DNA of 64,000 nucleotides, taken from contig NC_043000.1 in NCBI RefSeq assembly GCF_006345805.1, positions 36,146,001 through 36,210,000 of the forward strand, read 5' to 3'. The notes under the pieces are model-generated. The model was not told the DNA's origin, searched no databases, and was given only the letters and a program-made list of their open reading frames with translations. Every line of letters begins with the position of its first letter. The stretch's first letter is position 1. A program made the translations under genes and the position numbers. The stretch is from Octopus sinensis. Lineage: Eukaryota. Of this stretch, positions 10,461-59,081 are shown one piece after another.

Positions 10461-10783
10461 ATATATATATATATATATATATATATATATATATATATAT
10501 ATATATATATATATATATAGCAATTAAGGACAACTACTTAATAAGGAAAACTTAGCAAGAAATTGTCAGGTAGATAGCGTGAAAACCTCATAAGAGAAAA
10601 AATTTCGAAAATAATTATTTCTTATTGAACATATTAATTTATATATAGAGGGCATTATACATACATGCCAGAGGGCATTATACATACATGCCACACGCTA
10701 AGAGGGACAATTAGTCATTTCTACCAAAAATATTACTAATCCCACCGAATGCAATTTTTCAAAGTAAGACATTTAAAAAATAT

Positions 10784-10831
10784 AGACCTGTATCACAGTG
10801 ATTTCATACTTACGTATTCATCAGCAGGCCT
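10784..10831 (-). ncRNA. Minimal type I hammerhead ribozyme
   Basis: Minus strand: aggcctg CUGAUGA auac-guaa-guau GAAA ucac-u-guga UA| caggucu. 7-bp stem I, 4-bp stem II with GNRA loop, palindromic stem III, AUA cleavage triplet. Confidence 0.9.
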
Positions 10832-11256
10832 GAATGTATCATAAATAAACGACCCTGTCCCGCTAAGCCGATCAGCTAACTGATCAACATCAACGAAGCA
10901 CATGGGTGAGTTTACATATATTACATCCTGTAAATGGCATACTTTTACGAATGCATTTCGGGAAAGGAAAAGTTTTTTCGGAATAAAAATTTAGCAATTA
11001 AGGACAACTACTTAATAAGGAAAACTTAACAAGAATTGTCAGGTAGATAGCGTGAAAACCTCATAAGAGAAAAAATTTCGAAAATAATTATTTCTTATTG
11101 AACATATTAATTTATATATAGAGGGCATTATACATACATGCCAGAGGGCATTATACATACATGCCACACGCTAAGAGGGACAATTAGTCATTTCTACCAA
11201 AAATATTACTAATCCCACCGAATGCAATTTTTCAAAGTAAGACATTTAAAAAATAT

Positions 11257-11304
11257 AGACCTGTATCACAGTGATTTCATACTTACGTATTCATCAGCAG
11301 GCCT
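11257..11304 (-). ncRNA. Minimal type I hammerhead ribozyme (second unit)
   Basis: Identical to 10784-10831. Confidence 0.9.
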
Positions 11305-11768
11305 GAATGTATCATAAATAAACGACCCTGTCCCGCTTAAGCCGATCAGCTAACTGATCAACATCAACGAAGCACATGGGTGAGTTTACATATATTACAT
11401 CCTGTAAATGGCATACTTTTACGAATTGCATTTCGGGAAAGGAAAAGTTTTTTCGGAATAAAAATTTAGCAATTAAGGACAACTACTTAATAAGGAAAAC
11501 TTAACAAGAAATTGTCAGGTAGATAGCGTGAAAACCTCATAAGAGAAAAAATTTCGAAAATAATTATTTCTTATTGAACATATTAATTTATATATAGAGG
11601 GCATTATACATACATGCCAGAGGGCATTATACATACATGCCACACGCTAAGAGGGACAATTAGTCATTTCTACCAAAAATATTACTAATCCCACCGAATC
11701 TACCTGACAATTTCTGGCATGTATGTATAATGCCCTCTATATATAAAATATATATATATATATATATA

Positions 11769-12322
11769 TTGAAACCTAGGTCCGTGTGTGGTTTCCGCTT
11801 CATCGGGGAATTATCTCCCTTTGCAGGATAAAGGACGCCGTGATGGTGTCAAGCCTATCTGACGACGTTGATGTTCGCCTGGGGCTAAATGCAACAGTAA
11901 CACCCCCACCACCCTGCCCTGTCCCTAGCCATATTCAGATGGCTTTAGTCCCTTATGTTATGGAGCAGTTACTGTCTATATCTCATTTAGAGAATTATTA
12001 TTGCTGTCGAACAGATTTTCGAAATCAGCAAATGTATTTTGCTTGAAAATCTATATATAAATATCCTGCAGAGTGAGTTGTTCGTCGAGGAAGCGGGGGC
12101 CTACCACACGTTGATGATAGGCAATACACCTTGAAACCTAGGTCCGTGTGTGGTTTCCGCTTCATCGGGGAATTATCTCCCTTTGCAGGATAAAGGACGC
12201 CGTGATGGTGTCAAGCCTATCTGGCGACGTTGATGTTCGCCTGGCGCTAAATGCAACAGTAATACTCCCACCACCCTGCCCTGTCCCTAGCCATATTCAG
12301 ATGGCTTTAGTCCCTTATGTTA
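11769..12322. repeat. ~192-bp direct repeats (11769-11960, 12131-12322; period 362 bp) between (TA)n tracts
   Basis: Two near-identical blocks ttgaaacctagg...cccttatgtta separated by about 170 bp; multiple hairpins. Confidence 0.9.
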
Positions 12323-12360
12323 TATATATATATATGTATATATATATACATATATATATA

Positions 12361-12840
12361 GGCGTAGGAGTCGCTCTGTGGTAAGTAGCTTACGAACCTC
12401 ATGGTTCCGGGTTCAGTCCCACTGTGTGGCGCCTTGAGAAAGAGTCTCCTACTATAACCTCGGGCCGACCAAAACCTTGTGAGTGAATTTGGTTGACGCA
12501 AATTAAAAAAACGGCTGGTATATATGTATATATATATATATATATATATATATATATATATATATATATATATATATATATATATATGTATGTATGTACG
12601 TATGTATGTATGTGCGTGTATATGTTTGTGCGTATGTGTTTGTCCCCGCAACATCGCTTGACCACCGATGCTGGTGTGTTTACGTCCCCGTAACTTAGCG
12701 GTTCGGGAAAAGAGACCGACAGAAACCGATAAGTACTAGGCTCAGGCTCACAAAGTCCTGGGGTCGATTTGCTTGACTAAAGGCGGTGCTCCTGCTCCAG
12801 CATGGCCACAGTCACATGACTGCAACAAGTAAAAGAGAAA
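12361..12840 (+). mobile_element. OK-like SINE, full length
   Basis: ggcgtaggagtcgctctgtggtaagtagc...gggttcagtccc...internal (TA)n...cagcatggccacagtcacatgactgcaacaagtaaaaga. Confidence 0.9.
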
Positions 12841-12954
12841 GGGAAAGGATATATATATATATATATATATATATACATACAGTTGGAATTTACAAAAAAA
12901 AAACGAAGACAGTTGTATTAGTTTAACTCTCGGGAAGTCGAGAAAGTTTTTATG

Positions 12955-56807: not shown

Positions 56808-56894
56808 TATATATATATATTAAAAAAAAAATTTTATGTGCCCTTTTCAAGCCTAGCCAGCGTCATGGGCCCGGTTTCCCGGTTTCTGTGGCGT

Positions 56895-57831
56895 ATGTGA
56901 TTTATGAACTCGTACAAAGTTTCAATCGTTTCCAAAGGAATCTTCTGTCCATGCTTCAGCTAAAACAGTCTCCAGTTCTTGTAGTGATGATGGTGGAGGT
57001 TGTCGACTCCTTACTTGTTTTTCTAAATTGCACCATAAATGTTCAATAATATCGAGATATGGGTTCCCTGGTGGCCAGCTAAGAAGTTCAACTTCACTAG
57101 AATGTTCTTTGTGCCATTCAATAACAATTTTAGCTGTGTGAATTGGTGCATTATCATCCTGAAAGATTGCGTTTTACTCCGGAAGCAGTTCCACAATCAT
57201 ATGATGAATTTGATCAGATAAAATGCTTAAATTGTCTTGACTATTAATTCTGCCATGAAGGGAAACCATTAGACCGGCAGACCCTCCTCCGTGTTTAACA
57301 GTTGGAGGAAGGCAGTCTGGTCAAATGCTTCTGTTGGCTGTCTCCATACGTATACTCGGCCGGTGGTCGGAAATGAGATAAAGGATGACTTGTCCGAGGA
57401 AATAACATTCTTTTACTGCTCTAGGGATCAATTCTGTAGGTTTTTACACCATTCTAAACGCTTTGCAACGCTTGATTTTGAAAGTAGCGGTTTTCTGATT
57501 GCAGCCCTCCCGTGAAATCCGGCTTTGTGCAGCTTCCGGTGAACGGTTTTTGTGGAAACTGGGTTCTCGAGGTTGTTATGAAAAGCTGCAGTAATTTTCG
57601 GAGCTGTGCTCTTGTGATTCTTTCCAACAATTCACGTAAGACCGATGGTCCCTATCTGGAAGTTTGGGTTTTCTTACGGAGCTTTGTTTCGATGAGGAGG
57701 TTTTACCCTCTTTCTTAAAGGGTGTCATTACTTTTGAGACAGTACTTCTTGATACACCAAACATTTCAGCTGTTTTCATTATGCCAGCGCCTGCCATAGG
57801 AGTACCAACAATTCGGCCTCTTTGAAAGTCC
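56895..57831 (-). pseudogene. Tc1-family transposase pseudogene
   Basis: HTH region KTAEMFGVSRSTVSKV...RKPKL.DRD; C-terminal WPPGNPYLDIIEHLW (WP.SPDLN.IE.LW motif); frameshifted. Confidence 0.88.
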
Positions 57832-58189
57832 TTCTCCCCCCTCCCCTCCCCCCTCTTCTCCTCTCTCTACACTACACCATACGACTTTACACATCACATC
57901 ATATATACATACACACGTCTAGACCTCTCATACGCACTAATACTCTCTCATACACACACACACACAGTCTTCTCATACACACACAGAAAGATACACAGAG
58001 GTGTATATATGATGTGATGTATAAAGTCGTATGGTGTAGTGTAGAGAGAGAAGAAGAGGGGGGAGGGGGGAGAAAGAAAGGGTAGAAGGAAAGGGGAGAA
58101 GAGGAGGGGGAAGGGGAGGGGGGAGAAGGAAGGAGAGGAGCAGAGGAGGGGGAGAAGGAAGGAGAGGAGTATATATTTGTATATACATA

Positions 58190-58427
58190 CAGGAGTTGGA
58201 CAAAATAATGGAAGTACCTATCATCATTGCATCATAATTTTGAAATATCTGTAAAACCATCACAAGCTTGCTTATTTTTATCTTTTTTGATTTATTATTA
58301 GTGTTGCTTAATATGTTATGCAAAAATTGCTGTTTCTTTCCAGATATCATCAGAAAAAGGTAATTAAAATTCATTAAAATGACAGATCTATCGGACTTTC
58401 AAAGAGGCCGAATTGTTGGTGCTCCTA
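58190..58427 (+). mobile_element. 5' end (TIR to start codon) of the same Tc1 element, opposite orientation
   Basis: TA|caggagttggacaaaataatggaa TIR-like start; ATG at 58379 (MTDLSDFQRGRIVG); 58393-58427 is the reverse complement of 57797-57831. Confidence 0.8.
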
Positions 58428-58613
58428 CACACACACACACACACTCTTATGTTTGAGCGGGGTCATTCAACCCTATTATCTCCCCTAATTTCGCTCTTGC
58501 GTCTCATGTTTGATCTTTGACTTCTGGCCGAAATCAGATCGCCATGTTGATTCGCTAGCTTTTGCACGCATATTTTTTTCTCTCCTTCTTTCTGTGTTTT
58601 TTTTCTCTGTGTA

Positions 58614-58651
58614 TCTTTCTGTTGAAGAGCGTAGGCTCGAAACGTTAAAGA
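58614..58651 (+). ncRNA. Variant minimal hammerhead-like motif (CUGUUGA core)
   Basis: ucuuu CUGUUGA a gagc-guag-gcuc GAAA cg UU| aaaga; all stems pair but core position A6 is U. Confidence 0.5.
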
Positions 58652-58845
58652 CTTGTTTCATTTATATTTCCTGAGCGCCATACTAATACAATTGTTTGTT
58701 TGTATTCCACCTGCCTTCGTCTTTTGTCTATTTTCATAAAGCTTCCCGTTATATATATATATATAATATATATATATATATATATGTATATATATATATA
58801 TATATCTATATATATATATATATTATATATATATATATATATAAT

Positions 58846-59081
58846 ATTAATTCGAGACAAAACCACTATTTTGCAAAACAAACAAGGAAAGACTTAATCA
58901 ATACATAAAAATTTTTAATATAAAGAAATAAACCGCCACTACAATTGATTAAGTCTTTCCTTGTTTGTTTTGCAAAATAGTGGTTTTGTCTCGAATTAAT
59001 ATTATATAATATTTTACTATAAAATTGGATTTAATCCTAAATCTGATTTTTTCCCTGTAAATTTGGATGTATTCCCTAATA
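58846..59081. mobile_element. TA-flanked cassette with ~56-bp inverted repeats, related to 48059-48440
   Basis: attaattcgagacaaaaccactattttgc...aatcaat is inverted at about 58944-59002; shared aaattggat...ccctaatatt tail. Confidence 0.7.

What the first reader, a model, noticed from the sequence alone, without database searches (positions are those of the whole stretch)
10519..59081. A system of hammerhead-ribozyme cassettes that live inside (TA)n microsatellites
Seen: at least four otherwise unrelated non-coding cassettes (10.5, 17.3, 20.0 and 52.4 kb) plus a variant family (19.9, 47.9, 58.6 kb) each contain a type I hammerhead with a tiny palindromic stem III, and each is bounded by (TA)n or other dinucleotide tracts, several inside the TA core of OK-like SINEs. 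Known: such minimal, dimer-dependent hammerheads mark Penelope-like element pseudo-LTRs and non-LTR retrozymes, and some PLE clades favour microsatellites. Inference: these are diverse non-autonomous retrozyme-like RNAs mobilised by a TA-targeting PLE, and two PLE RT/GIY-YIG remnants lie in this window. About 10 motifs in 64 kb would imply a very large genome-wide ribozyme load if this window is typical.
Basis: partly seen in the sequence, partly recalled or inferred. Interest (0 to 1): 0.9.

Follow-up and report, generated by a model that had tools for sequence, protein, structure and literature searches.

The report
Penelope hammerheads and retrozymes in microsatellites
The hammerhead-ribozyme motifs are real and sit in the tail ends of Penelope-type jumping genes and in short non-coding tandem repeats (retrozymes) that carry the same insertion scars and so likely borrow the Penelope enzymes to land in TA repeats; this is a known kind of mobile DNA, but an unusually clean case for testing how retrozymes move.

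Summary
The motifs are real: 7 strict type I hammerheads plus one U6-core variant, against 0 strict hits in 40 shuffles. Family 3' ends abut (TA)n in 155 of 218 cases, against a 3.3% background. The cassettes are two things, not one. Those at 20.0, 52.4 and 58.6 kb are 5'-truncated 3' ends of protein-coding Penelope-like elements (PLEs); RT and GIY-YIG lie upstream in other copies. Those at 10.5, 17.3 and 29.4 kb are 456-502-nt non-coding tandem units, i.e. non-LTR retrozymes. Both classes share the PLE scar: two fixed 3' ends, one on each arm in 43 of 45 inverted insertions. This supports, but does not prove, mobilisation of the retrozymes by PLE enzymes. The window is about 9-fold richer than average; 40 unbiased stretches give about 34,000 strict motifs genome-wide (95% interval 11,000-79,000). 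The kind is published. Not found in my searches: these families, 76-155-nt tails, and a U6 core in a young PLE. The scan noted hammerhead-free analogues in other genomes. Cleavage and circles are untested.

The parts
10521..11755 (-). Family A retrozyme: 2.5 tandem copies of a 476-nt non-coding unit (10521-11699, minus) plus a short inverted arm (11713-11755, plus), (TA)n on both sides. The only locus in the window with two same-strand hammerheads.
   Evidence: 99% copies on many contigs, array of at least 11 units on C12
10784..10831 (-). Type I hammerhead A1 (core starts 10824; predicted cut after 10791); 7-bp stem I, odd palindromic stem III
11257..11304 (-). Type I hammerhead A2 (core starts 11297)
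10297..10460 (+). SINE 5' half preceding the (TA)30 tract beside family A
17298..18232 (.). Family B retrozyme: inverted two-arm insertion of a roughly 502-nt unit; left arm ends at the short end, right arm at the tail end; hammerhead cores at 17506 (-) and 17927 (+)
   Evidence: tandem arrays in L111, L115, L118
19577..20760 (+). One SINE (halves 19577-19715 and 20549-20760) whose TA core holds two independent insertions
19760..19975 (-). Decayed copy resembling the family-E group; core no longer intact
   Evidence: read by eye; fails the descriptor
20004..20481 (.). Family C: inverted pair of truncated 3' ends of a PLE with a CX4CxxC linker; intact core at 20282 (+), altered stem III at 20176 (-); tail of about 27 nt on the right arm
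   Evidence: RT, linker and GIY-YIG upstream in L192
29245..29873 (.).
30712..31133 (-). Broken GIY-YIG endonuclease remnant, Penelope/Poseidon-like by eye (recalled pattern, no profile hit sought)
47817..47965 (+). Family E-type 3' end, U6 core at 47867, changed 15.1/16.1 pair
48046..48453 (.). Family G two-armed 3' end, truncated so that no hammerhead core is kept
51766..52556 (+). Family D: about 790 nt of the 3' UTR of a PLE with Hydra-clade motifs; hammerhead core at 52442; ends in (CA)n
57836..58752 (+). Family E: rearranged 3' UTR of a PLE with a CX4CxxC linker (start approximate); U6-core hammerhead at 58619; ends in a long (TA)n
58846..59085 (.). Family G two-armed 3' end starting at about stem III, core absent; 40 other places 100% identical over 101 nt
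60320..62280 (+). Family P1 PLE remnant (limits approximate): RT, CX4CxxC linker, GIY-YIG, inverted 5' piece, decayed hammerhead near 62075-62112; intact relatives carry a U3-A8 core

Best explanation
The cassettes are 3' ends of several Penelope-like retrotransposon families plus three non-coding tandem retrozymes, each carrying a minimal type I hammerhead motif, and all were likely inserted into TA-rich microsatellites by Penelope RT/GIY-YIG enzymes. Shown here: the motifs, the coding parents of families C, D and E, the tandem non-coding units of A, B and F, the TA flanks, and two fixed 3' ends per family with one on each arm of inverted insertions. Inferred steps: (1) a tandem or read-through transcript is bound by a PLE protein; (2) the GIY-YIG domain nicks both strands of a (TA)n tract; (3) reverse transcription starts at two internal sites of the RNA, one per nick, which yields the short-end/tail-end inverted pair, with frequent early 5' truncation; (4) A, B and F supply the same cis signals without coding and are copied in trans; (5) the palindromic stem III is predicted to form only between two neighbouring ribozymes, so tandem arrays such as 10.5 kb would cut out unit-length RNAs that may circularise, while lone and inverted copies would be inactive by-products.
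For: 7 strict motifs against 0 in shuffles. RT and GIY-YIG lie upstream of the same 3' end for D (L002, L050, L194), E (L068, L072, L076, L079) and C (L192, endonuclease on both arms). A, B and F are 456-502-nt units, 33% GC, longest ATG frame 30-54 aa, found in head-to-tail arrays. TA at 155 of 218 termini against 3.3% background. Short+tail in 43 of 45 two-armed insertions, including 22 of 22 for A, B and F. Stem III monomer hairpins compute at 0 to +5.6 kcal/mol (none possible for E) and self-duplexes at -1.7 to -13.9. Literature: minimal dimer-type hammerheads in PLE repeats (PMC4209133); tail = segment between two RT start sites, both strands cut and extended at AT-rich DNA (PMC11167929); (TA)n bias of Naiad, Neptune and Hydra (PMC8557442); retrozymes derive from PLE ends (bioRxiv 10.64898/2026.07.22.740005).
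Against: No sequence similarity between A, B or F and any of five coding-PLE 3' UTRs; only 15-29-nt low-complexity hits, so the helper is unidentified. A coding parent of A, B or F could exist outside the 16-20 loci fetched per family. No cleavage or circle was shown. PLE hammerheads cleave poorly in vitro (PMC4209133), 8 of 9 Xenopus dimers did not cleave (preprint), and cleavage was dispensable for insertion in vitro (PMC11167929). D's short end prefers (CA)n; E showed no tail in 24 termini. Loci were best-scoring matches and the end classes were set after seeing the data. Within-family covariation in G was not above shuffles (264 of 500; 2 distinct rows).
Confidence: 0.78

Rival explanations
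1. All cassettes are truncated ends of coding PLEs; A, B and F are tandemised terminal repeats that grew at DNA level (unequal crossover) and are not mobilised as independent RNAs.
For: Three families that looked non-coding turned out to have coding parents; a G subfamily has about 1 kb of non-coding sequence with an inverted RT fragment beside it. The 2026 preprint proposes local amplification of a PLE terminus.
Against: A, B and F copies wrap from the tail end into the start of the same unit (34 tandem-continuing ends), and none of their fetched loci showed RT/GIY-YIG continuous with the unit. 99%-identical A arrays on many contigs each have their own short/tail TA junctions.
Confidence: 0.12
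2. The TA tracts are made or lengthened by the elements themselves (RT slippage on short TA motifs at the two start sites) rather than being pre-existing targets.
For: Most family ends coincide with a short TA-like motif that continues into the next unit in tandem copies; PLE RTs are related to telomerase (PMC8557442).
Against: Two independent insertions sit in the TA core between the halves of one SINE, and uninterrupted SINE copies have such a core. Several single-armed C copies have TA also at their 5' junction.
Confidence: 0.15
3. The hammerhead fold is kept as a protein-binding or folding signal for the PLE particle and cleavage is weak or irrelevant. This is compatible with the main mobilisation model.
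For: Family E has U at core position 6 in 27 of 27 matched copies while position 7 varies, yet has 96-99% identical dispersed copies. A change at position 6 (A6C) gave low activity (PMC3088659). Ribozyme mutants still insert in vitro (PMC11167929).
Against: The canonical core is kept across many unrelated families whose stems differ entirely, with the compensatory U3-A8 form in P1; this fits selection for catalysis.
Confidence: 0.3
4. The motifs are chance matches in AT-rich repeats.
For: Monomer folding z-scores are weak for 5 of 6 motifs (-0.6 to -1.7).
Against: 0 strict hits in 40 window shuffles and in 10 shuffles of 399.8 kb; palindromic stem III without being demanded; fixed place near element 3' ends.
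Confidence: 0.01

Closest known systems
Minimal hammerheads of Penelope-like elements (Cervera and de la Pena 2014, PMC4209133; results, discussion and part of methods read)
   Same: Type I, short stem I, palindromic stem III, extra base after A9 in several families, U3-A8 variant, mostly single or opposite-strand copies, thousands per genome, many sequence families
   Different: Several families here have A-U, A.A or U.U where G10.1-C11.1 is described as conserved; one young lineage has a fixed U6 core, which I did not see in the text read
Animal non-LTR retrozymes (Cervera and de la Pena 2020, PMC7229834, passages; Li, Clavereau and Pollet 2026, bioRxiv 10.64898/2026.07.22.740005, parts 1-3 of 5 read)
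   Same: Non-coding, low-GC tandem units with one type I hammerhead per unit, dispersed as monomers to multimers, proposed PLE origin
   Different: Units of 456-502 nt (150-450 in the 2020 text; 51-972 in the preprint); here inserted in (TA)n with PLE-type inverted arms and a two-end rule, which the passages read do not report; no parent UTR found by similarity
Hydra-clade PLEs (Craig et al. 2021, PMC8557442; section 11 and passages read)
   Same: Family D parent has RWK, DKT, CxCX5C linker, CxxC and CxH around the conserved E and N, canonical hammerhead, microsatellite insertion
   Different: 3' UTR of about 1.2 kb, tail of about 120 nt rather than 30-40, (CA)n at the short end; no tree built
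Neptune/Nematis PLEs (PMC8557442) and Poseidon PAc (Frangieh et al. 2024, PMC11167929; main text read)
   Same: C, E and P1 parents have a CX2-5CxxC linker and C-terminal GIY-YIG; P1 and C have 27-36-nt tails, partial tandems and inverted arms
   Different: Ends here mostly coincide with short TA motifs in the RNA, whereas PAc starts at non-homologous AC-rich sites; Neptune versus Nematis not resolved

Membership tests
Minimal type I hammerhead | CUGANGA / GAAA / UH core with stems I and II | tested here: met
   7 strict hits, 0 in shuffles; E has U6 instead of A6
Minimal type I hammerhead | Short palindromic stem III favouring a dimer | tested here: met
   A and B could also form a marginal 4-bp monomer hairpin
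Minimal type I hammerhead | Site-specific self-cleavage | not testable with these tools
   needs in vitro transcription
Non-LTR retrozyme (A, B, F) | Head-to-tail non-coding units of a few hundred nt, low GC | tested here: met
   476, 502 and 456 nt; GC 0.33; longest ATG frame 39, 54 and 30 aa; arrays
Non-LTR retrozyme (A, B) | Two or more consecutive units with a complete hammerhead | tested here: met
   A in the window; B in L111, L115, L118; descriptor passed by 54 of 61 A and 27 of 33 B copies
Non-LTR retrozyme (F) | Two or more consecutive units with a complete hammerhead | tested here: inconclusive
   old family; 1 of 13 spanning copies passed, no intact tandem pair seen
Non-LTR retrozyme (A) | Expressed as circular RNA | tested here: inconclusive
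   contigs of 4 runs guessed to be RNA cover all or part of the unit, with a head-to-tail joint in 3 of 4; tandem DNA or read-through gives the same joint
Non-LTR retrozyme (C, D, E) | No coding parent | tested here: not met
   RT and GIY-YIG upstream of the same ends
EN+ Penelope-like element (C, D, E, P1) | RT plus C-terminal GIY-YIG upstream of a hammerhead-bearing terminal repeat | tested here: met
   Pfam RVT_1 E 2e-7 for P1, no Pfam GIY-YIG hit, so the endonuclease is read from motifs
EN+ Penelope-like element | 5' truncation, partial tandems, inverted arm, optional tail | tested here: met
   tail not seen for E
Hydra clade (family D) | RWK, DKT, CxCX5C linker, CxxC and CxH flanking E and N | tested here: met
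   translations of broken copies L002, L050, L194 against PMC8557442 section 11
Hydra / Neptune / Nematis clades | Placement in an RT tree | not tested

The most novel reading that the evidence does not exclude
Retrozymes A, B and F are parasites of Hydra-clade PLEs, reverse-transcribed from multimeric or circular RNA by a dimeric enzyme that primes both nicked strands of (TA)n at two fixed RNA sites. The distance between the sites fingerprints the helper clade: long for Hydra-like (D about 120, H about 155, G about 76 nt), short for Neptune-like (C about 27, P1 about 36 nt), and long for A, B and F (about 110, 95, 87 nt). With 99-100% identical copies present, this would be a recently active system in which retrozyme mobilisation could be reconstituted.
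Probability: 0.3. Interest if true: 0.7.

Novelty: new member of a known kind. Interest (0 to 1): 0.42.

Why it matters
How animal retrozymes move is still inferred from co-occurrence and phylogeny; the 2026 preprint leaves the mechanism open. Here retrozyme arrays carry the same two-start-site scar as coding PLEs in one genome (22 of 22 two-armed insertions), which is structural evidence for PLE-driven insertion and names the RNA sites to test. It also means tens of thousands of ribozyme motifs and several young families are present in a microsatellite-rich genome; the two cephalopod repeat papers I checked mention no ribozymes. The U6-core PLE offers a natural test of whether cleavage matters.

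Tried and rejected
Rfam at E<=1 showed only microsatellite-driven matches among 150 of 224 rows listed. tblastn with the window's own and other local PLE proteins found only the 60-62 kb remnant; the 30.7-31.1 kb endonuclease was found by reading translations. The 13.2-14.3 and 16.6-17.1 kb pieces look RTE-like and 56.9-57.8 kb Tc1-like by eye (recalled patterns), so they were rejected as PLE remnants. Two G000 hits 1609 nt apart suggested a tandem family-C unit; it is a local duplication including flanks (L191). No parent for A, B or F by BLAST against five coding-PLE UTRs. The first terminus count (132 of 191 TA; 36 of 40 pairs) mis-scored some tandem continuations and was redone with two more families; 38 continuing ends and 27 off-class ends (2 TA) were left out of the 218. 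Pair counting on family G was first run off-register and, corrected, was not above shuffles. In the unbiased sample one U3-A8-type hit and one broken-core control hit also appeared; neither was counted. No RNA holder listed as RNA on record; 14 holders are guesses. Lunse et al. 2016 on PLE hammerhead variants is not held, so U6 may already be described there; no supplements were read for any paper. No earlier notes on this genome.
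Full report
Setting. The window is G000:C4:36146001-36210000 of a 2.72-Gb animal genome. It is 36% GC and about twice as rich in (TA)6+ as an unbiased sample (3.8% against 1.8%). Its SINEs look octopod; that is recalled, not tested.

Are the motifs real? A descriptor requiring the core, stems I and II, a closing stem III pair and a UH site found 7 strict hits and one CTGTTGA variant, with 0 strict hits in 40 local dinucleotide shuffles. 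Dropping the stem III demand and scanning all fetched DNA gave 31 distinct motif keys. Their segment between GAAA and UH is on average 0.74 self-complementary against 0.29 in shuffles; the keys are not independent. Computed monomer stem III hairpins are not stable (0 to +5.6 kcal/mol; none possible for E), while self-duplexes range from -1.7 to -13.9. Isolated motifs fold no better than shuffles in 5 of 6 cases. In family G, stem III shows an A-U, G.U, G-C series, but the formal test on 2 distinct rows was not above shuffles.

Three families are ends of coding PLEs. Copies of the 52.4-kb family (D) share a 3' end and vary 5', often with inverted arms. Longer ones run into a GIY-YIG frame and an RT with RWK, DKT, CxCX5C, CxxC and CxH motifs, the marks given for the Hydra clade (PMC8557442 section 11). 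Copies of the 58.6-kb variant (E) are 96-99% identical, and four run into a CX4CxxC linker and GIY-YIG, with RT core in L079. The 20.0-kb family (C) lies 3' of RT, linker and GIY-YIG in L192, with endonuclease and UTR on both arms. The 60.3-62.3 kb remnant (P1) belongs to a family with near-intact frames of 807 aa or more, an upstream frame and 14,090 first-look candidates, which are not copy numbers. Its UTR has a U3-A8 hammerhead, read by eye and decayed in the window. Family G (48.0 and 58.85 kb) keeps no core in the window, has intact cores elsewhere, and a subfamily has about 1 kb of UTR beside an inverted RT fragment weakly similar to D's (E about 2e-5); its parent is probable, not shown.

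Three families are retrozyme-like. A (476 nt), B (about 502) and F (about 456) are 33% GC, have no ATG frame above 54 aa and form head-to-tail arrays; A reaches at least 11 units at 99% identity. The descriptor is passed by 54 of 61 A, 27 of 33 B and 1 of 13 F copies. A folded as a circle gives -124.7 kcal/mol against -91.4 +/- 5.5 in 40 shuffles. No RT/GIY-YIG was continuous with these units in the loci fetched; the hits in those loci were other elements nearby. They share no similarity with five coding-PLE UTRs. Contigs from four runs guessed to be RNA cover unit A fully in 3 and partly in 1, with a head-to-tail joint in 3 of 4; this cannot tell a circle from tandem DNA.

Target and scar. 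Across nine families, 155 of 218 true 3' termini have (TA)4+ within 8 nt (142 of 179 without D), and 185 of 218 have some purine-pyrimidine tract. Backgrounds are 3.3% and 12.3% in the unbiased sample and 6.0% and 15.9% in the window. 38 tandem-continuing and 27 off-class ends were excluded; loci were best matches, and class limits were set after inspection. Seven families scored for both have two fixed 3' ends; H's tail was read separately and E showed none. In two-armed insertions one arm has the short end and the other the tail end in 43 of 45 cases; A, B and F give 22 of 22; the exceptions are C in L123 and D in L053. Tails measure about 27 (C), 36 (P1), 76 (G), 87 (F), 95 (B), 110 (A), 120 (D) and 155 nt (H), against 30-40 bp in print (PMC8557442, PMC3846280 passages, PMC11167929).

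Mechanism. For the PAc element the tail equals the segment between two internal RT start sites, both strands of AT-rich DNA are cut and extended, and ribozyme cleavage needs protein but is not required for insertion in vitro (PMC11167929). I infer the same here: two nicks in (TA)n, two starts and an inverted pair. Both arms often contain the same 3' sequence, which needs a multimeric or circular template or two RNAs. The retrozymes would be copied in trans. Only same-strand tandem copies can pair their stems III in cis, so in this window only 10.5 kb would be competent. Confidence 0.78 for the overall model; catalysis and the helper's identity are untested.

Load. Forty 10-kb stretches at fixed offsets on 17 large contigs (399,800 bases) hold 5 strict motifs and 1 U6 motif, with 0 of either in 10 shuffles. 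That is 12.5 strict motifs per Mb (95% interval 4.1-29.2), or about 34,000 (11,000-79,000) genome-wide. The window has 109 per Mb (P about 2e-5 by motif, 1e-3 by insertion). Published counts are about 9,000 in Xenopus tropicalis (PMC4209133), over 6,000 in a coral, about 5,000 in a mussel, and up to 120,000 in axolotl by a section title (PMC7229834 passages). The load is high but within range.

U6 variant. Of 34 motifs matching the E architecture, 27 have U6 and 7 have A6 (3 of them CCG, i.e. U4C, and 1 decayed); position 7 varies. The pattern itself fixed part of stem II. A6C was reported at low activity and A6U is absent from that paper's main text (PMC3088659). Lunse et al. 2016 could not be read, so the novelty of U6 is uncertain.

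Novelty. Minimal PLE hammerheads, TA bias, tails, inversions and PLE-derived retrozymes are all published. Eight answered searches listed no paper on cephalopod hammerheads or on retrozymes with a two-end rule, and two cephalopod repeat papers do not mention ribozymes in their main text. The library lacks most subscription papers and no supplements were read. Earlier scan notes describe tRNA-bearing analogues in TA repeats of other genomes (unchecked, no effect on the score). Verdict: new members of a known kind, interest 0.42.

Noticed in passing
   Followed up: yes
window 58846-59085 and 48046-48453: Family G 3' ends; 40 other places are 100% identical over 101 nt, which suggests very recent activity
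   Followed up: partly
L033-L042: Young PLE family P1 with an upstream frame overlapping an RT-endonuclease frame of about 811 aa, and a U3-A8 hammerhead with only a 2-bp stem II
   Followed up: partly
L037:5013-5981 and L193:1-945: A second Hydra-like PLE (H) inserted just after a P1 copy; long stem II hammerhead, tail of about 155 nt in L008 and L176
   Followed up: partly
L195:2250-2900 and L095:1124-1271: A diverged relative of unit A (77-78% identity), tandem with a period of about 494 nt in L195; related letters appear as loose ends in all four runs laid
   Followed up: no
L133:771 and 1130: Two identical U3-A8 hammerheads 359 nt apart, possibly another tandem retrozyme family
   Followed up: no
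window 47867-47900: E-type motif in which both bases of the 15.1/16.1 pair are changed, keeping a pair; seen in one copy only
   Followed up: no
window 29074-29125: Core-like motif with a weak stem III and no stem I, probably a decayed hammerhead of a further family
   Followed up: no
window 39465-40066: Tandem array of about 150-nt units at 95-98% identity with no hammerhead hit
   Followed up: no
window 54327-54757: Long inverted repeat between TA tracts, no hammerhead hit
   Followed up: no
window 11769-11961 and 12131-12323: 98% identical direct repeat of 193 nt between TA tracts right after array A, family unknown
   Followed up: no
window 13160-14340, 16630-17130, 56880-57830: RTE-like RT and zinc-finger remnants and a Tc1-like transposase remnant, named by eye from recalled patterns
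   Followed up: partly
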